This document shows positions 7,972 through 52,110 of a stretch of DNA of 64,000 bases, one piece after another. Below the pieces are notes generated by a model. It ran no database searches. It saw nothing but the letters and a program-made list of their open reading frames with translations, and was not told the DNA's origin. Source of the stretch: an uncultured cyanobacterium. Lineage in GTDB: Bacteria; Cyanobacteriota; Cyanobacteriia; Cyanobacteriales; Nostocaceae. Numbering within the stretch: the first letter of the stretch is position 1; every line of letters starts with the position of its first letter. Made by a program: the position numbers and the translations under genes. The DNA is taken from the NCBI GenBank assembly GCA_963706595.1, contig OY970166.1, positions 2,496,001 to 2,560,000 of the forward strand, written 5' to 3'.

Positions 7972-8066
7972 AACATCACAACAGGATTCTCCATGAATTC
8001 TGTTTTGATTTTCTGATTTCTATTTTGGTTAACAATTAATTTTTCTAAACTTTTTCTAGATTTTCA

Positions 8067-8326
8067 TTATACTTGTGATGGCGATACATCTGCCAAACTG
8101 TAGGCGTTACGAGTCAGCAATATTGAATCCGTTAGTTCAAAAGTTACATCATGCGCTCTACCTAAATGGTAGTACGCGGCTTGACGGAATTCTTTTAGTT
8201 TGGCACATTTCATATTTGCAGATGAGGGTTGGTAGTTCTGCTCTCAGTTTCTGCTAATAGGGGGCTTGTGTTCAATCACACCCCTTATTTTTTTCTTTGA
8301 ATTTGGCTATTTAGTCTAAACTCCAG
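8067..8326 (-). mobile_element. Truncated IS (IS701-like/DDE transposase N-terminus plus probable end)
   Basis: 8213->8067 encodes MKCAKLKEFRQAAYYHLGRAHDVTFELTDSILLTRNAYSLADVSPSQV*, resembling the N-terminus of cyanobacterial DDE transposases. Candidate terminus CTGGAGTTTAGACTAA at 8326-8311. Confidence 0.7.
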
Positions 8327-8349
8327 GAAATAAACCAAGAGAGAAAAAC

Positions 8350-8380
8350 AAAAGCCCCTTCCATGATAGAAGAGGCTTTT
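8350..8380 (-). terminator. rRNA operon terminator
   Basis: AAAAGCCCCTTC...GAAGAGGCTTTT hairpin just downstream of 5S, with a T-run on the minus strand. Confidence 0.75.
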
Positions 8381-8395
8381 ATGTTTGAAAGATAA

Positions 8396-8514
8396 ACCTG
8401 GCATCGAGCTATTTTTGCAGAGGGCTACCCCAAAACTATCGTCGCCGCAGCAGCGTTTCACCTCTGAGTTCGGGAAGGGATCAGTGTGGTTCCACCGCGC
8501 AATAAACACCAGGA
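8396..8514 (-). rRNA. rrf: 5S rRNA
   Basis: TCCTGGTG...CCACACTGATCCCTTCCCGAACTCAGAGGTGAAACG...CCAGG. Confidence 0.97.
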
Positions 8515-8589
8515 AAGAATGGTGGGTCAGAGACCCTGAAGGCTGCACAGTCACGCGAAATAATTAGCAATTCACACAAGCAATGATCT

Positions 8590-11419
<2,830 letters not shown>

Positions 11420-11769
11420 ACTTTTTCATTGGTGTTTTTCTGCAAACTTTTTTTCGTTCTGTTTACTTCTTTCTTTGCACTGATTTTACTCAGCACTCAT
11501 CAAAGAAGCACTCAGGACTCCAATTCGTCTGCCTGCTTTTTTTCGCGTTACTATGCAGTTTTCAAGGTTCTGGCTGGATAACTACCCAGCAGTTCGATTG
11601 TACAAGACAATCAATTGCTGAATTTCTATTCCAATTAAAAATTGAGATGTTTATAAACTGAACCAAAGATACTTTGAAAGCTTTTACCAATTCTCGAACG
11701 ACCTAGGAATGACCAACTCAGTATCTAATGGCAATTTGCTTTCGATGTTTGAGTGGATTCGGTCTCCCT
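11420..11769 (-). other. 16S-23S ITS without tRNA genes; contains boxA
   Basis: About 350 bp; boxA GAACCTTGAAAACTGCATA at about 11552-11570; no tRNA-Ile or tRNA-Ala sequence. Confidence 0.9.
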
Positions 11770-13259
<1,490 letters not shown>

Positions 13260-40946: not shown

Positions 40947-41040
40947 ATTGTTCTCTTGTTAACTCATGGCTGAAACTGTTGGGGCGGAACTTATTGCGCC
41001 CCAACTTAGATTTAAATTTTTAAATAAATATATTTGTCAT

Positions 41041-41315
41041 CTAATCAATAGGAATAGTGATCACGAATTCAGAACCTTTTCCTGGTGCGGAATTCACTTC
41101 CAGACTTCCCTGGTGCTTCTCTACAATAATTTGACGCGCAATTGATAATCCTAAACCAGTACCCTGTCCTACAGGTTTAGTTGTAAATAAATATTCAAAT
41201 ATTTTCTGCTGAACATCATCTGACATTCCCACTCCATTATCTTTGAGATGATTTCTAAATTGGTATTTGTATCATCGACAATTAAAATTAAATCTTTTTT
41301 TGGGAGATTAGACAT
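41041..41315 (-). pseudogene. Internally deleted hybrid response regulator-histidine kinase
   Basis: ATG at 41315 gives MSNLPKKDLILIVDDTNTNLEIIS (receiver start), joined out of frame at about 41245 to KDNGVGMSDDVQQKIFEYLFTTKPVGQGTGLGLS (HATPase end). Confidence 0.8.
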
Positions 41316-42425
41316 TTTTATTTTTTAGTTTTGATAAATCTTATAATTATTTTTTTGTTTAATTATGCTGAAATGCCGTTGTATTATCTTCTGAGATTTT
41401 TTGAGTCAGTCCGTATTGTTAGAGTACAGAGTCAGAGATATGAGCCAATATTCCTTCTCTGCTTTTCTTCAGAGAGAGTAATCAGGAGGCTAGAACCGGC
41501 TGTGCGATCGCGCTACCCCTTGTTCATTAGCTTTCCCAAAAAGGTGTTGATTCTTACTATTGATATGGAATAACCATACCCAACAGATGGCTTCCACAGG
41601 ATATCTTTGCTCATTTGCATGATCGTCTGGCAATCAGTCATTCAGTTGCGCGACAGACATATACGTTATTTTTTTTAGTTTGTCATCACCTATTTGAATG
41701 ATATTTGCTGTTTATTTAAGTGTTATATGAAAATTATACTAATTTTATTGCTTGTCATTAGATGTATTTATAGGTATAAATAAAGATTTTGCGTGAGAAA
41801 ATTTTGATCTTTTTAAGTTGTAAGTAATGCTAGTAAAAATTATACCTTTGAGAGAGAAGAATAAATTAGTCCTTGAGGTCTAATTAAGAATATTTATAGA
41901 TAAATTTAAGGTTGAATTTAACTGAGAGATATGATGCAAGTAGTAATTTATATGTATTATTACTTAATTAATAAAAACAAAAGGATTTGTGATTTTTTAA
42001 ATATATCGAGGAAACTTCCATAAAATTACTGTTATCATTTTTAAGAAAAAATCAAACAATAGTCATATAAATTCAAATTTAAACCGTAATTTATAGCTTC
42101 AAATGTAGTTACCAGAAGTGCAAAGATAATTTGCGAACAGTATACTTTTCTGGCAAAGTAATCAAACAAATCTAGTGAATCAGAGTTATTTATAGCTCAG
42201 GCTAGAACTCAGCCGTAACTCAATTTTTCAAAAATGAGTTAATAGATGAATTTGTAGTAATTATTCATTCTAATAGACACAAATTCATTGCGTTTGCGTA
42301 GCTAAATAAATCAATTTATTAGGGAATAGGGATATTCATGCAAGAGCGATAGAAATAATTTGCTGATTTATGGTGCAACAGTTAATTTGTCATAACGTAA
42401 ATTATTGAATTAGGGAGATTTAACA

Positions 42426-43139
42426 ATGAGAGAATTACTCGTATTTATTGAAGAAAAAAAACAGGAATTTGCGAGTTTACCATTATTTGAATTCATGAGA
42501 GATCAAAGTATTGATCCCAAAGAAAGGCTTGCTTGGGCATCATACGCGGCTCCTTTTATTATGAGTTTTGGAGACTTAAACAAATATGTTTTTAGAGACG
42601 AACAAAGTAGCGATCCAATTCAGGTAATCATCAACAAACATACTTATGAAGATGATCATCACTGGTTATGGTTTTTAGAGGACTGTCAACTTTTACAAAT
42701 TAACCAAGGAATGCATTCTATCGATGCATTTAAATTTATTTGGGGTCAAGAAACAGAAATGTCTCGCCAGTTAGTGTATAAACTTTGTAGATATAGTTTC
42801 CAAGCTACTTTGATCCAGAAATTGGTATTAATTGAAGTCATCGAAGCAACTGGAAATGTCATGTTTGTAGTTGCATCTACAGTTGGTAAGCAATTTCAGG
42901 AAACTACCCAAACAAAACTTCTTTACTTTGCTGATTTTCATTTAAATGTAGAGACTGGGCATACAACTGGCTCACCTGAAGTAGAAGAATTTATGCAAAA
43001 TATTCAATTGTCAGAAGAAAATCTACAGGAAGCTTATGAACTGGTTGAAAAAGTGTTTGATCTTTTTACAAGCTTTACCAACTATCTTTTAATTCATGCT
43101 CAAGAATCTACAAAGCGCCAAGTTGCAAAAGCTAATTAA
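42426..43139 (+). CDS. Heme-oxygenase-like diiron (HDO) enzyme, AetD-like
   Basis: 237 aa, predicted helical; D76/H79 (HTYEDDHHW), E140, H172/E176/H179 (FHLNVETGH), colinear with AetD as recalled; SD AGGGAG. Confidence 0.75.
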   Translation: MRELLVFIEEKKQEFASLPLFEFMRDQSIDPKERLAWASYAAPFIMSFGDLNKYVFRDEQSSDPIQVIINKHTYEDDHHWLWFLEDCQLLQINQGMHSIDAFKFIWGQETEMSRQLVYKLCRYSFQATLIQKLVLIEVIEATGNVMFVVASTVGKQFQETTQTKLLYFADFHLNVETGHTTGSPEVEEFMQNIQLSEENLQEAYELVEKVFDLFTSFTNYLLIHAQESTKRQVAKAN

Positions 43140-43190
43140 AAAATACTGGCATTCGTCAAAACTCAAGTATAAATTTGAAGAGGAAAAGTC

Positions 43191-44786
43191 ATGAATGTAG
43201 TCACAAACATCGAATACTTAATTATTGGTGCGGGTCCGGCGGGTTTACAGTTGGGTTATTTTCTGGAAAAATCTAATTCTAATTATCTGATATTAGAAGG
43301 ATCTGATATTCCTGGTAATTACTTTACAAATTTCCCTAGGCATAAGAAATTAATTTCAATTAACAAGGTGTATACGGGCTACGATGACCCAGAAATTAAC
43401 CTCAGATGGGATTGGAATTCACTCTTGAGTGATAGTGAAGAAATGAAATTTAAGCACTATAGCAGGCAGTATTTCCCCCACACAGATGATTTGGTTAAAT
43501 ACCTCGGCGATTTTGCCAATCATTTTGAAATTAAGATTAAATACAATTGCCAAGTTGTCAAAATTGCTAAAAATGACAAGTTTATGGTGATAGACAGCAA
43601 TGGGAATATTTATTCGGCAGACCGTCTGATTATAGCGACTGGTTTTTCTAAACCATATATACCAGCAATTCCTGGAATCGAGTTAACAGAAAAATACACT
43701 GATATCTCGATAAATCCAGAAGATTTTGCTAATCAAAAAGTATTAATTATTGGTAAAGGAAACTCTGGATTTGAAACTGCTGACCATTTAGTCGGAACTA
43801 CTGCACTGATTCATATCACTAGCCCATCACCGGTCTCTTTATCGTGGAAAACTAAATACGTAGGACATCTGCGAGCAATCAATAATAATCTCATAGATTC
43901 ATATCAACTCAAATCTCAAAATGTAATTTTAGATGCTATAGTCAATAAAATTGATTATCAGAACGGTCAATACATTGTGACCTTTACTTATGGACATGCA
44001 GATGGAGAAGTTGAGGATTTAATCTATGATCGCGTAATTTTGTGTACTGGATTTTGCTTTGATACTTCTATATTTGACGAGTCATCTGTGCCTGATCTAG
44101 CTATCAACAATCGCTTTCCCAATCAAACTAGTGAATGGGAATCAACTAACATTAAGGACTTGTATTTTATTGGAGTGCTAATGCACATGCGGGATTACAA
44201 GAAGAAGCAATCAGGCTTTATTCATGGGTTCCGTTATAATATTCGTTCCCTTTATCACATTTTAAATCGTAAGTACCATAATCAAGAGTTACCATGTCAA
44301 GAAATTAAACTTACTCCTGAATACTTGGCTAAAGCTATTCTCAAACGGGCAAATCAAAGTTCAGGTTTATGGCAGCAAACAGGCTTTCTTTGCGACCTAA
44401 TTATCGTCCTCAAAGATAGTAACACAGTCAAGTACTACGAAGATATCCCAACAGATTATGTACATGAAAGCGACTTAGGTGAGGAGGAACACTACTATAC
44501 TCTGACTTTGGAATTTGGACTAGATATTATTTTTGCCAGCCCAGATCCTCTTGCTGTTGAGCGCATCCACAAAGATGACATTGATCGAGCCGCACTCAGT
44601 TCTGGTATCCACCCCATCGTTCGCCATTATTGCAAGCATACTCTGATTGCAGAGCATCATGTTATTGAAGATATAGCTAGCGAATGGTTAGAGGATGTAC
44701 ATATTCACCCACTGCTGAAATTCTTGCAATATCAACTATCAAGCAAGGTATCTCTGCCGACATTAGCTTCATCAATCCCCCAATAA
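43191..44786 (+). CDS. FAD/NAD(P)H-dependent oxidoreductase, FOXRED2-like
   Basis: GAGPAG, LRWDWNSLLS, IIATG, GKGNSG, LCTGF, SGFIHGFRYN. Confidence 0.75.
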   Translation: MNVVTNIEYLIIGAGPAGLQLGYFLEKSNSNYLILEGSDIPGNYFTNFPRHKKLISINKVYTGYDDPEINLRWDWNSLLSDSEEMKFKHYSRQYFPHTDDLVKYLGDFANHFEIKIKYNCQVVKIAKNDKFMVIDSNGNIYSADRLIIATGFSKPYIPAIPGIELTEKYTDISINPEDFANQKVLIIGKGNSGFETADHLVGTTALIHITSPSPVSLSWKTKYVGHLRAINNNLIDSYQLKSQNVILDAIVNKIDYQNGQYIVTFTYGHADGEVEDLIYDRVILCTGFCFDTSIFDESSVPDLAINNRFPNQTSEWESTNIKDLYFIGVLMHMRDYKKKQSGFIHGFRYNIRSLYHILNRKYHNQELPCQEIKLTPEYLAKAILKRANQSSGLWQQTGFLCDLIIVLKDSNTVKYYEDIPTDYVHESDLGEEEHYYTLTLEFGLDIIFASPDPLAVERIHKDDIDRAALSSGIHPIVRHYCKHTLIAEHHVIEDIASEWLEDVHIHPLLKFLQYQLSSKVSLPTLASSIPQ

Positions 44787-44787
44787 A

Positions 44788-46329
44788 ATGAATTCAAAAA
44801 TTCAGCATATTTGCATTATTGGTGCGGGCATTAGTGGTCTAGTGGCAGCTAAAACATTTATGGAAGAAAGCTACGAAGTCACTGTGTTTGAGAAGCAGAA
44901 GGGACTTGGTGGTGTGTGGGAAAGTTCTCGGACTTATGTAGGACTAACCACCCAGAATCCTCGTGATACCTATGCGTTCACAGATTATCCTATGCCTGCA
45001 TTTTATCCAGAGTGGCCTACTGCTGAACAGATGCAGAATTACTTGAAGTCTTATGCACAGCACTTCGGAATTGTTGAAAAAATTCGATTTCAAACGGAAG
45101 TTATTCAGATTGAAAGAAAAACTGGAGTACAGCCAGGATGGATAGTTAGCATTAAGTCGAATGATCAGAACACACAGAATAAATACGAGTTTGATTTTGT
45201 TCTCGTGTGTAACGGTATTTTTAATATCCCTAAAATGCCATTCTTCCCTGGGCAGAAAGAGTTTGTAGCATCTGGAGGTCAGGTGCTACATTCTACCGAA
45301 TTAAATGATATTTGCCAGGTTGAGGGTAAGCGGATCATCATTGTGGGCTTTGGCCGGTCTGCAACTGATATAGCTACTCAAATTGTTTCTCAAGCCAAAG
45401 AATGTACTTTGCTGTTTCGACATTCTTTGTGGAAGATGCCGAAATATTTCCTAGGTCTATTCAATATCAAGTATGTTCTGTTAACTCGTTTTGCAGAAGC
45501 TTGGTTTCCTTACCGACACCTGCAAGGGATAGAGTGGGCGCTACATACTATAGGAAAGCCCATCGTATGGGCTTTCTGGAAATTGAAGGAGATTCTCGTG
45601 CGCTTACAGTTCGGTCTTGATAGTTGTGGAATGTTACCTGACAAACCTCTATATGAATCAGTGAACTGTTCGAGTGCGATCGCGCCCACAAATTTTTACA
45701 AGTATTTAGCCTCTGGCAAACTCAAGGCGAAAAAGACAGCGATCGCTCGGTTTAATAGTGATGGAGTAGAACTAGAGAATGGTGAACAGTTACACGCAGA
45801 TGTCGTCATCTTTGGGACAGGATTTCGCCAAGATGTCCCCTTTCTCGAAAACAAGTATCGTCAGATGCTGATTGATGACCAAAGCTATTTCCACTTATAC
45901 CGCAATCTCATCCACCCTAATATTCCTCAACTAGGCTTTGTCGGCTACAACTCCAGTTTCTTTAGCCAACTAACGTCTGAGGTTGGATCATGGTGGTTAG
46001 CTGAGTATGTTAAAGGCAATTTGCTATTACCCTCAAACGCCGAAATGATTCAGGATATGGAAGCAGAAATTTACTGGAGACAAACTAAGTGGCCCGCAGG
46101 TGGAGGTAATGGGGGATGTACATCCCCGTTTAACTTTCATCACCTCGAACAACTGATACAAGATATGAGAGTGAAAAGTCATACTTCTGGCTGGCAGCGC
46201 ATTGCAGAAGTGATGATGCCCGTAAATCCATCCACCTATCAATACATCCGCAAAGAATTACGCGGAAAAAGGCTTTCATCGGCAAATAATTCCGAGATAG
46301 CTGAAAGTTCAGCTATAGAAGTGGGTTAA
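44788..46329 (+). CDS. Class B flavin-containing monooxygenase (FMO-like)
   Basis: GAGISG, FEKQKGLGGVW, variant FMO motif F...GGQVLHSTEL, GFGRSATD, FGTGF; starts 1 nt after the upstream stop. Confidence 0.88.
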   Translation: MNSKIQHICIIGAGISGLVAAKTFMEESYEVTVFEKQKGLGGVWESSRTYVGLTTQNPRDTYAFTDYPMPAFYPEWPTAEQMQNYLKSYAQHFGIVEKIRFQTEVIQIERKTGVQPGWIVSIKSNDQNTQNKYEFDFVLVCNGIFNIPKMPFFPGQKEFVASGGQVLHSTELNDICQVEGKRIIIVGFGRSATDIATQIVSQAKECTLLFRHSLWKMPKYFLGLFNIKYVLLTRFAEAWFPYRHLQGIEWALHTIGKPIVWAFWKLKEILVRLQFGLDSCGMLPDKPLYESVNCSSAIAPTNFYKYLASGKLKAKKTAIARFNSDGVELENGEQLHADVVIFGTGFRQDVPFLENKYRQMLIDDQSYFHLYRNLIHPNIPQLGFVGYNSSFFSQLTSEVGSWWLAEYVKGNLLLPSNAEMIQDMEAEIYWRQTKWPAGGGNGGCTSPFNFHHLEQLIQDMRVKSHTSGWQRIAEVMMPVNPSTYQYIRKELRGKRLSSANNSEIAESSAIEVG

Positions 46330-46418: not shown

Positions 46419-46463
46419 GTGATGAAGTAAGCAATGGCTAAACGCCGTTGCTTACTTCATCAC
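46419..46463. terminator. 20-bp stem hairpin between convergent genes
   Basis: GTGATGAAGTAAGCAATGGC-TAAAC-GCCGTTGCTTACTTCATCAC. Confidence 0.65.
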
Positions 46464-49400
46464 TATCCTATGGGTATTTCAATTACAAACTCAGTACCCT
46501 GTCCCAGTTCAGAATTACAGGTTAACTTACCCTGATGTTTATCCACAACAATCTGATAACTGATTGACAAACCCAACCCTGTACCACTACCTACTGGTTT
46601 CGTAGTAAAAAATGGGTCAAATATTTTTTGCCGCACAGATGCTGTCATACCAAAGGCGTTATCAGCAAACCTAATCTTGAGCATATTAGACTTTGTTAGT
46701 TCAGTGCAAATACGAATTGTGGGACTGCTAATGGTTTGCTCTTTAACTTGTGTCTCTTGCAAGGCATCAATTGCATTGCTAAGAATATTCATAAATACTT
46801 GATTAAGTTGACTAGGGTAACAAGTAATAATCGGTATATCTCCGTATTCTTTGATGATTTTAATTTCACTACAAGTTTGATCTCCAAGTCGTTTTACGTT
46901 TGTAGTATTTTGCTTAAATCGATGCTGCAAAATCATTAAAGTGTTATCCAGCCCCTCATGAATATCAACAGGTTTCATTTCAGATTCATCCAGGCGGGAG
47001 AAATTACGTAAGCCTAAAACGATATTTCGGATACGCGAACTTCCAACTTTCATAGAATCTATAGTTTTAGGTAAGTCTTCTACTAGAAAATCTAGATCAA
47101 TTTCTTCAGCTTTTTCGACAACTTTAGATGCTGGATAGGGATATTCACGTTGATAGACAGCAAACAAGTCTAATAAATCTTCGACATAATCACTAGTATG
47201 AACAAGATTGCCATGAATAAAGTTGATAGGATTGTTAATTTCATGGGCAATTCCTGCTACCATTTGCCCCAAGGAAGACATTTTTTCACTTTGAATTAAT
47301 TGGCTCTGAGTGCGTTGCAATTCCTGTAAAGTTTGCTGCAAATTTTTATTTTTCTCTTTAATTTCTAATGTTCTTTCGGCTACTTTTTCCTCTAAAGTGT
47401 GGTTGTATACCTCCAATCGCTCATTAGCTTGAGCTAAATTTTTGTAAAGCATGGCATTCTCTAGAGAGATTGCTGCTTGGCTAGTCAAAAGTTTGAGAAC
47501 TTCTAAGCGATCGCGTGTAAATGCCCCTGTGGTCAAATTATTTTCTAGGTAAACAATGCCCAGCAATTTACTTTGATTAATCATTGGGATACACAACAAA
47601 CTTTTTGCTTCCTGATGAATAATGTAGATATCTGCCGCTAAGGTAGCTTGAGCTTTTACATCATCAACAACGAATATTTCGCGTGTACGTTTTACATAAT
47701 TAATTAAAGAAATAGGAACATCGGTACTAGATTCTAGAGCAGTTGCTATAAAATTTATGTTAGTATCAATAGAATTTGAACTGTAACTAACGGCAGTAAC
47801 TGTTAAGGTTAATTCATCACTTTCACTCAAAATTAAAACACATTTCGATGCTCCCGCGTTTTCCATGACAACTTCCATTAAAGTCGAAAGAAGTTCCTGT
47901 AATTCAATTTCCCCAGAAAGTGCTTGAGACGCTTTAATGACAGTTGCTAAGTCCAGCATATCTGACATACTAGTATTAGAACTAACCATAGCTTCATTAG
48001 TAATTAAGATAGATTTATTACTAGGGTTAGATTGAGTTATGCTACTTTCAGAGGTACTTATTTCACTAGAATGTAGGTTCAGCTTTTCTGCTTGAATAAT
48101 AGACTTCAGTAATTGAGAATAGCGTTTTTCTAAGTCGTTTACTTTTGCTAATGCACCCCACCGAACATAGCTATAGTAAGCATCAGTTAGGTAAGTTTGG
48201 GCAATCTTCTGCTTACCCCATTCTAAATAAAACTTACTGGCAAGTTCTTGAGCCAGAGCTTCTTCATGGATATATTCATGTTCATGAGCCAGGGAGATGG
48301 CACGGTCATAATATTCCATTGCCTCCAAATATTGAGCCAAAATACGATATTTTTCAGCCTCTATCAAATAAAATTTATGTAAATGATTTATCGGCACATG
48401 ATCTGCCCATTTACGTATCTTTTGTTGATTAGCTAGTACTTTAGCCAAGATTTGTTCTTGTTGAGATGGCTCGGCATCATCATATATAGCCAGCAATGCT
48501 AGAGAACTATAAAAATATAATTGCGGAACCACAAACTGTCCAATTCCACTAGGTAAATACTGCTCTGCTATGACAGCATTTTTAACTGCTTCAGGGTAAT
48601 TGCCAAATAGATAACACAAATAAAGTTTACATAGATAAACATACAAAAGTGCAATTCCATCATTAGCTTTTATCTGAACTGGCAGGATTTTTGTCTCATC
48701 ATAAGCTTCACCAATCAAATGGCAGGGATTTTCAACAGCACCCATTAAATTTAATACTGTCTGTCGATAAATTTGAATCCAGTAAAAAACGCCATCCTGC
48801 TTAATTTGGCAGGCGGCATAACTGTAGTTTGCCATTTCCCGCTCAAGTTGGGTCAGTTCCTGACCGCTAAAATAGGAAATGTAGCAGTATGAATATAAAG
48901 AATAAGCAGCGAATTCTAAATCTCCTGTTTCTAATCCAACAGCATAAGCTTCTAAAAGAGGCTGTAAAACTTCCTTAATCGGTTCCTTCCAATGCCTGAC
49001 ATGAGCATTAAATGTTTGGATAATTTTAGATTTAATTTCTTTAAGATTAAAGCGTGATGATAGACTTATAGCTAATTTGCCAAACTGATAACCAAGTTCA
49101 ATATCTTCCAAAGGACCACACAGCATTAAACCATAGGCAACATATGCAAAGGCCGATAAGGGAGAATTACCATATTTAAGCGATAAATTAACTTGTTTCA
49201 AGCAAATCAGAGGCATCAGTTCAGGAACAGACTGATAAGCCAGAGCAATTGCACTGGACAAAATACGCATGATTGCCAATGGTTCTGCTTGCTTCATCTC
49301 TGGTAAATCAATTAATTCTTCTATGTTGCGATTAACCAGAATTGAAGTTGTTATTTCCATTTCTTTCTGAACATCAGTCTGGCTAGGATGCTCTGGAAAT

Positions 49401-52110
49401 TGCACTCCCAACAATGTCAAAAAGGCTAGTGCAGTTTTGACAGCTTTTATTGCTTTACCCTGCGCCCCATAAGCCTGGATTGTGACTTCATAAACTTTTA
49501 CCTTCTCCAATAATGTATTAGCTTTTGCTAACACAACCTGAACCAGTTGCTCTGTCTGCTCAAATTCGCCATTCAAATATGCCGCCTCTGCCGCAGCCTC
49601 ATATAAAGCTAGGGTTAGCTCATATTTAATATCCCAACTATCACCCGCCAGCAGTTTAATTCCAGTCGTTAAATACTTAATCGCAGCTGAGTAAGCTGTG
49701 GATGCTAAAGCTTTACGTCCAGCAATCAGGTTCATTTCAGATAGCTCATCGCGCTTAGTTTGCTCTGTGATGAATTCAATTGCAATGTTAAGCTGATTAA
49801 CCAAAATAAAAATATTTTCTTCCCTCTGCTCAATAGGGATGTCATTAAATAGCAATAGCCCTATTTTTAGGTGAATTATTTTTTTTTGTTCAATAGGAAT
49901 TAAGGAATAAGCAGCTTGTTGCACCCGGTCATGTACAAAGCTATATTTGGGTAATTTATTATTATTATTAGTTATTAATTTGTGTGATTCTTCTCTATTA
50001 GAAACTTCTGGCTGTTTATACTCATCTTCTGACAAAGAATTGTATACTTCATTTTGAGGCAAAACTAAACCATCAAGCAAGGCTGGCCATAAATCATTTG
50101 CTGTATCTACTATAGATTTTTCATGAATAGTGGCAAGGGTTTTTAAGTCGAATTCATTACCAATACAAGCCGCGGATATCAACAAGTCATGAGTAATTTT
50201 GGGCAGTTTTTTGATTTGAATTGCCATGAATTCTACTACATCGTCTGTAAGAGTTAATGCTTGAATTCTTGTAATATCATACTGCCAGTGACCAAGATCC
50301 AAATTCAATGTAATTAGTCCATCATCATGTAAAGACTTCAGGAATTGAGTCACAAAGAAGGGATTTCCTTTTGTTTTAGCAAATACAATTTGTGTCAAAG
50401 GAACAGCAACTACTTCTTGACAATGCAATGTATCAACAATCAAATCATTTAAATCTGATTGATTGAGGGGTGAAAGAGTTATGCTATTAATAGTTGCTCC
50501 TGTTTTAGCAATTTCTTGTAATGTCAAATTTAATGGATGTGCATTTGAGACTTCATTATCACGGTATGCACCAATCACTAATAAACTCCCATTATCCTTC
50601 ATTATCCTGTGCATTTTGTCTGTAACAATAGAAGCTGTAGCTTCACTCATTAATAATTGGATAAAATTCAAAGAATCTTTATCTGCCCATTGCAAGTCAT
50701 CCAGAAAAATTACTAAAGGATGCTCTTTAGTATTAAAAATTTGTATGAATCTCTGGAACAATAAGTTAAACCGATTTTGGGCAGCACTACCAGAAATATC
50801 TGTAGCTGGAGGTTGTTTACCAATAATCATTTCTAGTTCAGGAATTACATCAGTAATTACCTGACCATGCGTACCCAATACTGATAAAATTTTCTCCTTC
50901 CACTGTTGAATTTGAATATCAGTTTCCGAAATTAGTTGGTCAATTAAATCCCTAAAAGCTTGTACTAATCCTGACAAAGGGGTATCATGTTGAGATTGAT
51001 CAAATTTACCCTTTATAAAGTAGCTACGCTGTCTGACAATCGGCTTATGAATTTCGTTGACTATAGCAGTTTTACCAATCCCGGAAAAACCCGTGACTAA
51101 TATCATTTCTGTTGTCCCGTGTGTCACGCGGTTAAAACTGGCGAGTAGAGTTTTAAGTTCACGTTGACGGCCATAAAGTTTTTCGGGAATAATAAAACAG
51201 TTAGAAATATCTCGACTTCCTAATTCAAAATTTGCAATATCTTCTTTTTCTTGCCACTGCTTGCGGCATATTTCTAAGTCATGCTTGAGTCCATATGCAC
51301 TTTGATAACGGTCTTCGGCATTTTTTGCCATTAGCTTGCTGATTATCTCAGACAAGATGGGGGAATATTAGGGTTAATCTGGCTAGCTTTTGGCGGTTCT
51401 TTTGCAATGTGCGAGTATACTAACTCTATTGGGTCAGTGCTGCTGAAGGGTAACTGTCCCGTGAGGAGTTCAAAGAAGGTAACACCTAAAGAATAAAAAT
51501 CAGTGCGGTAGTCAATACCTCGATTCATACGTCCCGTTTGTTCGGGAGAAATATAAGCTAGTGTGCCTTCTAAAACGTTAGGATTTGTAATAACTTGAAT
51601 TTGTTTCGGTAAGAGACTCGCAAGACTAAAATCGATGATTTTAATCTCATTAGTCTTGGGTTTAATGAGAATGTTAGCGGGTTTGATATCCTTGTGAATG
51701 ATGCGATGGTGGTGTAGTCCTTCCAGTGCGGAAGAAACTTCAATAGCAATATGGAAAAACGCAGTTAAAGAAACCGGATTTTTCTCCATGTCCGGCTTTT
51801 TTTGTTGCCAATCTTTAAGAGATATACCGCCAAAGTCTTCCATGACTAGGATATAGCCGTTGCCGTAGTTTTCCAAACTATGGGGTTTGACAACTCCGGG
51901 TATATCCAGGTTTTGGGTAATACTGTATTGATTACGGAACTGAGCGATTTCAGCAAAAGTAGGATATTCATTCCGCATCAGTTTGAGGATCACAGGTTTT
52001 TGATCTTGTTCTCTGATGCCCCGATAAACTAGGGTTTTGCTACCTGAATAGATTGGCTCAGTAATCCGATAGCCAATTATAGGGTATACAGTATCTAATC
52101 CTACTAACAT
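46463..52110 (-). pseudogene. Ser/Thr kinase-AAA ATPase-GAF-histidine kinase (HstK/Pkn type), frameshifted (ORFs 51343-52110 and 46463-51355)
   Basis: HKDIKPANI, EGTLAYISPEQTGRMNR; GFSGIGKT, FLDDLQW; GAF; AHEINNP; GTGLGL. A 1-nt loss in the C run at about 51360 breaks the expected NIPPILSEIISKLMAK. Confidence 0.88.

What the first reader, a model, noticed from the sequence alone, without database searches (positions are those of the whole stretch)
42426..46329. Uncharacterised three-enzyme operon: AetD-like diiron enzyme + FOXRED2-like flavoprotein + FMO
Seen: three co-oriented genes with 51-nt and 1-nt gaps, SD sites before the first two, a long AT-rich upstream region and a strong hairpin at the end. 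ORF1 has D76/H79/E140/H172/E176/H179 spacing. Established: this is the ligand pattern of heme-oxygenase-like diiron oxidases, and from memory it is colinear with AetD, the nitrile-forming enzyme of aetokthonotoxin biosynthesis. Class B FMO folds include amine N-hydroxylases and single-component halogenases such as Bmp5 and AetF. No other aet-type genes, NRPS or PKS are present. Inference: a stand-alone pathway that oxidises a free amino acid to a nitrile, oxime, N-oxygenated or possibly halogenated small molecule. I know of no described pathway with this gene combination.
Basis: partly seen in the sequence, partly recalled or inferred. Interest (0 to 1): 0.88.

Follow-up and report, generated by a model that had tools for sequence, protein, structure and literature searches.

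The report
Skatole cluster with swapped flavoenzyme
This cyanobacterial three-gene unit is a variant of a recently described pathway that breaks tryptophan into skatole and cyanide, but its halogenating enzyme is replaced by a relative of the poorly understood human flavoprotein FOXRED2, which gives that protein family a concrete small-molecule reaction to test.

Summary
ORF1 is 57.6% identical to the skatole synthase SktA (39% to AetD) and carries SktA's pocket residues T142/F214. ORF3 is 54% identical to SktC. This is a variant of the skt cluster of Nostoc punctiforme NIES-2108 (PMC11869266). The new element is ORF2: a true FOXRED2 homologue (39% to chimpanzee FOXRED2) that sits where the tryptophan halogenase SktB sits. 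In 80 related HDO loci a halogenase is present in 38, an ORF2-type gene in 19, both in 0. ORF2-type genes adjoin an HDO in 29 of 30 family loci and are fused to one in at least 10 proteins. They are not found in SktA's own genome, and they also occur beside tryptophanase, indoleamine dioxygenase and a halogenase-linked antiporter. Best reading: ORF2 decorates the tryptophan ring (halogen about 0.35, hydroxyl about 0.3), ORF1 cleaves the product to a substituted skatole plus cyanide, and ORF3 oxygenates it. A reductase role (about 0.2) is not excluded. No chemistry is shown. The scan noted the fused form before on other DNA (e1-2770723).

The parts
40947..42425 (.). AT-rich intergenic region between ndhB and ORF1; presumed promoter and regulatory region
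   Evidence: 30.4% GC overall, 25.8% in 41650-42425; sigma-70 scan not above chance, 19 against 23.1 +/- 4.1
42426..43139 (+). ORF1: SktA-type heme-oxygenase-like diiron oxidase (probable skatole synthase)
   Evidence: 57.6% to SktA, 39.1% to AetD; six ligands plus F44/F48/Y167/T142/F214; in a 99%-supported clade with SktA (quick tree)
43191..44786 (+). ORF2: FOXRED2-family FAD/NAD(P)H flavoprotein in the slot of the halogenase SktB; reaction not shown
   Evidence: PF13738 E 2e-53; 39% to chimpanzee FOXRED2; slot counts; model pLDDT 96; fold neighbours
44788..46329 (+). ORF3: SktC-type class B flavin monooxygenase
   Evidence: 54.2% to SktC over 511 aa; PF00743
46419..46463 (.). About 20-bp hairpin between the converging ORF3 and kinase genes
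   Evidence: z = -7.7; one copy in the genome; not called as an intrinsic terminator
46463..51355 (-). C-terminal piece (AAA, GAF, His-kinase ATPase) of a large hybrid kinase gene that regularly accompanies these HDO loci
   Evidence: Pfam; a member of the kinase cluster lies downstream of the HDO in 57 of 80 loci
51343..52110 (-). N-terminal Ser/Thr kinase piece of the same gene, in another frame (one frameshift near 51350)
   Evidence: Pfam Pkinase; the intact paralogue aligns in two frames, residues 18-264 and 279-1876

Best explanation
A variant of the skt pathway. Step 1 (inferred): ORF2, a self-sufficient FAD/NAD(P)H/O2 enzyme, substitutes the benzo ring of L-tryptophan in place of SktB. 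Halogenation is slightly favoured (about 0.35) over hydroxylation (about 0.3). Step 2 (inferred from close homology to a characterised enzyme): ORF1 binds the amino acid at a diiron centre and cleaves C-alpha/C-beta to give a substituted or plain skatole, cyanide and CO2. Step 3 (inferred; also only proposed for SktC): ORF3 oxygenates the 3-methylindole to an oxindole-type product. The adjacent hybrid kinase may sense or regulate this (weakest step). Shown: genes, homologies, ligand and pocket residues, synteny, fusions. Not shown: any reaction.
For: ORF1: 57.6% to SktA, and 24 of 27 inspected ligand and pocket-region positions identical to SktA against 17 to AetD; SktA chemistry from PMC11869266. 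ORF3: 54% to SktC. Slot: in 80 loci, Trp halogenase 36, a second halogenase type 2, ORF2-type 19, none 23, both 0. The halogenase/ORF2 label needs 5 changes on the HDO tree and both states occur inside two separate starred clades; each FMO subtype occurs with either middle gene. ORF2-type genes adjoin an HDO in 29 of the 30 best of 63 family matches. HDO-ORF2 fusions: 8 among the best 120 homologues, plus P0242 and L175. Partners outside HDO loci are Trp/aromatic enzymes: tryptophanase (L226), amino-acid oxidase (L173), 3-HAO (L168), IDO fusion (P0252). For halogen: family members are fused to (P0257) or lie beside (L107, L108, L224) an antiporter family that lies within 6 kb of a flavin halogenase in 5 of 8 plasmid loci inspected, of 36 matched, and beside the aet genes. 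Near-invariant K59 and K241 (117 and 118 of 127 rows).
Against: No characterised ORF2-family enzyme was found. ORF2 lacks WxWxIP and FxxPxSxG. K241 did not align with AetF K258 in a low-confidence part of the profile alignment. The same residues are kept in vertebrate FOXRED2, which is not known as a halogenase; the only activity I saw cited is reductive prodrug activation (PMC4800186). In this cyanobacterial family the antiporter is mostly housekeeping: 29 of the 30 best loci have a second antiporter and none a halogenase within 1.5 kb. The gene after AetE-type tryptophanase is a FAD_binding_3 monooxygenase in 11 of 14 loci, AetF in 1 and ORF2-type in 1, so that slot is not halogenase-specific. 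The exclusivity is not significant on independent pairs (5 pairs, median p 0.5). Top fold neighbours include a disulfide reductase (YpdA, Z 32, rmsd 2.7, 313 aligned) tied with monooxygenases. ORF1 has I139 where SktA has T139.
Confidence: 0.5

Rival explanations
1. ORF2 is an indole-ring hydroxylase rather than a halogenase; the pathway makes hydroxy- or, with a methyltransferase, methoxy-skatole derivatives. This is the hydroxyl branch of the best explanation.
For: An O-methyltransferase follows in 3 of 19 ORF2-type loci (L006, L064, L069) and in none of the 38 halogenase loci. Class I methyltransferases follow in L066, L085, L093, L099, L214 (some may be the same genome). A sulfotransferase lies in L107. 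Fold neighbours are largely oxygenases. The slot after tryptophanase usually holds a FAD monooxygenase.
Against: One O-methyltransferase locus has no ORF2 (L050); P450 or FMO genes in the same loci could supply the hydroxyl (L064, L006, L107); the window's own unit has no methyltransferase; the antiporter links point to halide.
Confidence: 0.3
2. ORF2 is the dedicated NAD(P)H-dependent reductase that returns the diferric HDO to the diferrous state; the product is then plain skatole and its FMO oxidation product.
For: Tight linkage (29 of 30) and at least 10 fusions. A distant member also pairs with a distant HDO (L170, 28%) and one is fused to a haem IDO. A dedicated HDO reductase has precedent (MboB, PMC13185094 passages). 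Human FOXRED2 is cited as reductively activating prodrugs. YpdA ties for best fold match.
Against: Not found in SktA's own genome or in two HDO-plus-FMO genomes (G302-G304), and absent from 61 of 80 HDO loci. A reductase need not exclude a halogenase, yet the two never co-occur. ORF2-type genes also stand without any HDO beside tryptophanase (L226), in L218, and fused to FAAL-ACP. No Fe2S2 domain or CxxC. The C-terminal domain has no match at Z >= 5 among 48,161 chains, reductase C-domains included.
Confidence: 0.2
3. One reading: ORF1 makes a nitrile like AetD, or a flavoenzyme N-oxygenates the amino acid to an oxime or nitrile.
For: ORF1 is 39% identical to AetD with all ligands. N-hydroxylases (DesB, DfoA, PvdA, SidA) are among ORF2's fold neighbours at Z 25-28. 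HDO outcomes diverge with few pocket changes (PMC13108848 passages), and ORF1's six-member clade is distinct from SktA's.
Against: ORF1 has T142/F214 like SktA, not A142/S214, and lies in the SktA clade. ORF3 is a SktC homologue. AetE and AetF were not found in the genome.
Confidence: 0.15

Closest known systems
skt cluster of Nostoc punctiforme NIES-2108 (SktA skatole synthase, SktB Trp 5-brominase, SktC FMO; PMC11869266)
   Same: Three co-oriented genes HDO - flavoprotein - FMO; ORF1 57.6% to SktA, ORF3 54.2% to SktC; same converging hybrid kinase downstream (L021).
   Different: The middle gene is a FOXRED2-family protein with no BLAST hit to SktB; ORF1 has I139; ORF3 belongs to a second FMO subtype.
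aet cluster (AetD nitrile synthase, AetF single-component halogenase)
   Same: Same HDO family and ligand set; a class B-type flavoprotein as candidate halogenase; ORF2 and AetF share the FAD-binding N-terminus (HHalign probability 97).
   Different: 39% identity; AetD pocket residues absent; AetE and AetF not found in the genome; ORF2 and AetF do not align reliably past about residue 160.
FOXRED2 / ERFAD (eukaryotic ER flavoprotein)
   Same: 39.4% over 444 columns to chimpanzee FOXRED2 isoform X3 and 35.9% over residues 8-520 to a fish orthologue; 14 of 14 inspected conserved positions shared with the chimpanzee protein.
   Different: Bacterial, without the N-terminal extension, and embedded in small-molecule gene clusters.
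MboA/MboB (HDO with dedicated reductase; PMC13185094, PMC13725569)
   Same: An HDO next to a flavoprotein.
   Different: MboB is an Fe2S2/flavin phthalate-dioxygenase-reductase type; ORF2 has no such domain.

Membership tests
HDO superfamily (AetD/SktA branch), ORF1 | 3-His/3-carboxylate ligands D76, H79, E140, H172, E176, H179 | tested here: met
   ligands from PMC11611611
HDO superfamily (AetD/SktA branch), ORF1 | Substrate-contacting F44, F48, Y167 | tested here: met
HDO superfamily (AetD/SktA branch), ORF1 | Seven-helix bundle fold | not tested
   ORF1 was not modelled; inferred from the full-length match to AetD chains, E 3e-51
SktA-type skatole synthase, ORF1 | Pocket residues T142 and F214 | tested here: met
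   residues named in PMC13108848
SktA-type skatole synthase, ORF1 | Pocket residue T139 | tested here: inconclusive
   ORF1 has I; close SktA relatives in halogenase-FMO loci carry T, L or I
SktA-type skatole synthase, ORF1 | Forms skatole and cyanide from Trp | not testable with these tools
   needs an assay
AetD-type nitrile synthase, ORF1 | M139, A142, S214 | tested here: not met
   I139, T142, F214
skt cluster | sktA and sktC homologues in one co-oriented unit | tested here: met
   57.6% and 54.2%
skt cluster | sktB, a PF04820 Trp halogenase | tested here: not met
   ORF2 has no PF04820 hit; tblastn with SktB finds nothing in the genome
FOXRED2 family, ORF2 | Full-length homology including the C-terminal domain and the conserved motifs | tested here: met
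Canonical flavin-dependent halogenases, ORF2 | WxWxI(P) and FxxPxSxG motifs | tested here: not met
   motifs from PMC13519999
AetF/Bmp5-type single-component halogenases, ORF2 | Lysine equivalent to AetF K258 in the NADP-domain insertion | tested here: inconclusive
   K241 (118 of 127) lies in that domain but the profile alignment there is low-confidence and does not pair the two; no residue-level structural overlay was available
AetF/Bmp5-type single-component halogenases, ORF2 | AetF-like overall fold | tested here: inconclusive
   class B-type core shared; lists of 50 cannot exclude a family
Any halogenase or hydroxylase, ORF2 | Halide- or O2-dependent substitution of an indole | not testable with these tools
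   needs an assay
Thioredoxin/glutathione reductases, ORF2 | Redox-active CxxC | tested here: not met
   no CxxC; no cysteine among the near-invariant columns
MboB-type HDO reductase, ORF2 | Fe2S2 ferredoxin domain | tested here: not met
   no such Pfam hit; MboB described
Class B FMO (SktC type), ORF3 | Two Rossmann motifs | tested here: met
   motifs at residues 12 and 187; PF00743 175.6 bits
Class B FMO (SktC type), ORF3 | FxGxxxHxxx(Y/F) fingerprint (motif recalled) | tested here: inconclusive
   strict pattern not matched; G and H present at 164 and 168

The most novel reading that the evidence does not exclude
ORF2 founds a new class of single-component flavin halogenases, unrelated in its catalytic half to PrnA-type and AetF/Bmp5-type enzymes and homologous to vertebrate FOXRED2, with a C-terminal domain that matched no solved fold here. 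Cyanobacteria would then have swapped three or four unrelated halogenase types into one slot to tune a halo-skatole signal read by the neighbouring hybrid kinase, and eukaryotic FOXRED2 would be a candidate O2-activating small-molecule enzyme rather than only a reductase.
Probability: 0.3. Interest if true: 0.85.

Novelty: new variant of a known kind. Interest (0 to 1): 0.55.

Why it matters
The pathway type (aerobic skatole and cyanide formation by an HDO) was published in 2025, so the unit as a whole is not new. What matters is ORF2. The FOXRED2 family runs from cyanobacteria and actinomycetes to giant viruses and vertebrates, and I found no reported small-molecule substrate for it. Its recurrent swap with tryptophan halogenases names a substrate (tryptophan or indole) and leaves three distinguishable reactions that one set of assays can separate. 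Either a new halogenase or hydroxylase class, or a second type of dedicated HDO reductase, would be new enzymology. ORF3 also offers a second, 54%-identical candidate for the SktC step, which could not be tested because SktC was insoluble.

Tried and rejected
1. Complex prediction ORF1 + ORF2: no verdict, score 0.00; not used as evidence.
2. RNA runs: none was listed, so co-transcription is untested.
3. AetF was not among the 50 rows shown in three fold searches of the ORF2 model nor among the best 60 of 444 profile hits; this does not exclude kinship.
4. ORF2 C-terminal domain (residues 362-520, pLDDT 93): no Foldseek match at E <= 0.001, best Z 4.4 among 48,161 chains. My idea that it is a glutathione- or ferredoxin-reductase C-domain found no support.
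5. The idea that MboB is a FOXRED2-like protein: rejected.
6. Antiporter as a general halogenase marker: holds in the plasmid loci (5 of 8) but fails in this cyanobacterial family (0 of 30 within 1.5 kb).
7. Tryptophanase loci as a second halogenase slot: not specific.
8. Independent-pairs test of exclusivity: too few pairs. The careful tree did not finish; the quick tree was used.
9. Myxococcota-centred phylum search: 1 of 301 genomes has the ORF2 family. The 57 viral loci were not read for neighbours.
10. Promoter scan: at chance level.
11. Paper searches without a useful hit: FOXRED2 + bacteri + biosynthe; halogenase + antiporter + halide + BGC; methylindole volatiles of cyanobacteria; FOXRED2 with halogen/monooxygenase/tryptophan, 15 of 587 listed, none holding FOXRED2; DiatB, 0 papers, so ORF3's PDB hit DiatB stays uninterpreted.
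12. ORF3 as the halogenase: not supported; it stays in place whether or not a halogenase is present.
Full report
1. Observation. The three ORFs, the 51- and 1-nt gaps, the SD-like stretches before ORF1 and ORF2, the AT-rich upstream region and the hairpin are all present. The unit lies between ndhB and a converging hybrid kinase gene in a 5.57-Mb single-contig genome whose nearest named HDO relatives are Nodularia sp. (72% and 68%). ORF1 has no Pfam hit but matches AetD chains at E 3e-51 and has the six ligands that PMC11611611 gives for AetD.

2. The pathway type is published. A paper search led to the skt cluster of Nostoc punctiforme NIES-2108 (PMC11869266; I read parts 1-2 of 4 of the text and parts 1-2 of 3 of the supplement). 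SktA turns Trp or 5-Br-Trp into skatole, cyanide and bicarbonate; SktB is a self-sufficient Trp 5-brominase; SktC is an FMO that was insoluble and has only a proposed role. The skt locus came back as L021, and the N-termini of its three ORFs match the supplement's sequences. ORF1 is 57.6% identical to SktA and 39.1% to AetD; ORF3 is 54.2% identical to SktC; ORF2 has no hit to SktB. A review (PMC13108848, passages) names M139/A142/S214 of AetD against T139/T142/F214 of SktA. ORF1 has I139/T142/F214, and position 139 varies among T, L and I in close SktA relatives. In a quick maximum-likelihood tree of 81 HDOs, ORF1 falls in a 99%-supported clade of 45 with SktA (AetD was not in this tree). SktA-type chemistry is therefore the best inference for ORF1, at about 0.7.

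3. ORF2 occupies the halogenase slot. Of 85 confirmed HDO matches the best 80 loci were kept. A Trp halogenase is present in 36, a second halogenase type in 2, an ORF2-type gene in 19, none of these in 23, and both kinds in 0. Some loci are cut short, and 4 of the 23 have lost most iron ligands. The exact trio occurs in 6 of 80 and HDO + halogenase + FMO in 33. Halogenase and ORF2 alternate within two separate starred clades and need 5 changes on the tree, and each FMO subtype occurs with either middle gene. The independent-pairs test cannot confirm exclusivity (5 pairs, median p 0.5). Conversely, ORF2-type genes are found in 57 of 389 family genomes, and 29 of the 30 best loci, the window's own included, have an HDO next door; 8 of the 30 also have the FMO (these overlap with the first set). 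Eight of the best 120 ORF2 homologues are HDO-ORF2 fusions; two more are P0242 and a 781-aa ORF in G305.

4. What ORF2 is. It belongs to the FOXRED2 family: an Atlas cluster of that name scores 0.98, and a search of representatives (587 proteins at E <= 1e-30) returned chimpanzee FOXRED2 isoform X3, 39.4% identical over 444 columns and sharing all 14 conserved positions inspected. The model (pLDDT 96) has a class B-type FAD/NAD(P) core whose nearest solved folds are tied between YpdA reductase (Z 32.0), the S. aureus putative monooxygenase 3d1c (Z 31.4) and type II FMOs (Z 30.7), followed by N-hydroxylases. The C-terminal 160 residues match nothing at Z >= 5. There is no CxxC and no canonical halogenase motif. 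K59 and K241 are near-invariant, but the profile alignment with the AetF family (probability 97) is reliable only to about residue 160 and does not pair K241 with the catalytic K258 (K258 from PMC10306068 passages). Fold and motifs do not decide the reaction.

5. Context beyond the HDO. Family members stand without an HDO next to a tryptophanase 73% identical to AetE (L226), an amino-acid oxidase (L173), a 3-HAO (L168) and a histidine-type methyltransferase with a FAD oxidase (L218), and are fused to an IDO domain (P0252), to FAAL-ACP (P0243, P0246) and to a Na+/H+ antiporter (P0257). Both actinomycete loci found among plasmid records (2 of 2) carry a P450 and the same antiporter family. That family follows the Trp halogenase in L046 and L061, lies beside the aet genes in G607 and in the halogenase-containing cla and abe clusters (PMC3158105 passages; family identity not tested), and is within 6 kb of a flavin halogenase in 5 of the 8 plasmid loci I opened, chosen for diversity out of 36 matches. 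Against this: in the window's own family the antiporter is mostly housekeeping (29 of 30 best loci in tandem with another antiporter, none with a halogenase within 1.5 kb, 1 with an ORF2-type gene), and the gene after AetE-type tryptophanase is a FAD monooxygenase in 11 of 14 loci. O-methyltransferases follow in 3 of 19 ORF2 loci and 0 of 38 halogenase loci, which favours a hydroxyl. An obligatory reductase role is unlikely because no ORF2 homologue was found in the genomes of L021 (SktA), L036 or L067. An optional one is possible: MboB is a precedent of a different fold (PMC13185094, PMC13725569 passages), and FOXRED2 is cited as reductively activating prodrugs (PMC4800186 passage).

6. Mechanism. 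Most likely: Trp -> ring-substituted Trp (ORF2; inferred) -> substituted skatole + cyanide + CO2 (ORF1; inferred from SktA) -> oxindole-type product (ORF3; proposed for SktC, untested there too). My odds for ORF2: halogenase 0.35, hydroxylase 0.3, reductase 0.2, other 0.15. A member of the large kinase cluster lies downstream in 57 of 80 loci (the cluster also holds smaller two-component genes), and two of this genome's three long hybrid kinases sit tail to tail with its two HDO genes. This suggests a signalling role, which is inference only. Here the kinase gene is frameshifted.

7. Novelty. The HDO-flavoprotein-FMO layout and two of the three genes are known; the FOXRED2-type middle gene is not described in the skt paper's parts that I read, in the passages of the 2026 HDO review, or in the ten searches. 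The library lacks most subscription papers, and I did not see part 3 of the skt supplement or the supplements of the other papers, which could list such homologues. Also seen but not used: passages of PMC13519999 (motifs only), bioRxiv 10.64898/2026.08.03.742642, one table row of PMC3684772. Labels recalled rather than from a call: ndhB, topA, the FMO fingerprint, 'formamidase-like' and 'kynurenine-monooxygenase-like'.

8. Verdict. Real, and a new variant of a known kind. It keeps real interest because it gives an orphan family that includes a human protein a named candidate substrate and a short decisive experiment. Interest 0.55.

Noticed in passing
window 46463-52110: The hybrid Ser/Thr-AAA-GAF-His kinase gene is split by one frameshift near 51350, close to a short homopolymer; pseudogene or sequencing error.
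   Followed up: partly
G000:C1:1592262-1592957: A second AetD/SktA-family HDO (46% to ORF1) stands alone, tail to tail with an intact 1879-aa hybrid kinase; similar lone HDOs occur in other genomes of the genus.
   Followed up: partly
L096, L098, L104, L205, L210: HDO + ORF2-type gene followed by an indoleamine 2,3-dioxygenase, and in some an SDR or an alpha/beta hydrolase (formamidase-like, recalled): possible ring-opening branch. The same hydrolase follows the FMO in L006 and L031.
   Followed up: no
L230-L241: A recurring P450 + AetE-type tryptophanase + FAD monooxygenase unit (11 of 14 close AetE loci have the monooxygenase) without AetD or AetF nearby.
   Followed up: no
L219, L220, L222, L169, L174: A conserved cluster of ORF2-family gene, amidohydrolase, radical SAM, ATP-grasp, PLP decarboxylase and O-methyltransferase; two divergent ORF2 subtypes fill the first position.
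   Followed up: no
L076, L077, L079, L080: Microcoleus HDO homologues that have lost most iron ligands (H72Y, E75K, D76K, H79Y, H172Y) yet keep one conserved locus.
   Followed up: no
L223:6270-8757: At the same ndhB-kinase locus the HDO is followed by a far more divergent ORF2-family gene (45%), suggesting a second independent recruitment of the family.
   Followed up: no
L109-L162: FOXRED2-family genes (30-40%) occur on many viral contigs, a number of them giant-virus MAGs.
   Followed up: no
L185:4502-8648: A Bacillus mycoides plasmid carries tyrosine phenol-lyase, antiporter and an unannotated flavin halogenase between IS6 elements: candidate halophenol unit.
   Followed up: partly
L043:7795-10015: HDO followed by a short ORF with tandem TWTENLDIDLAH-type repeats and a second halogenase type; may be a peptide precursor.
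   Followed up: no
L045, L068, L073: Other tailoring partners of the HDO: aromatic prenyltransferase (L045) and P450s (L068, L073).
   Followed up: no
window 8001-13000: A GC-rich stretch (46-54%) almost without long ORFs, probably an rRNA operon; not checked.
   Followed up: no
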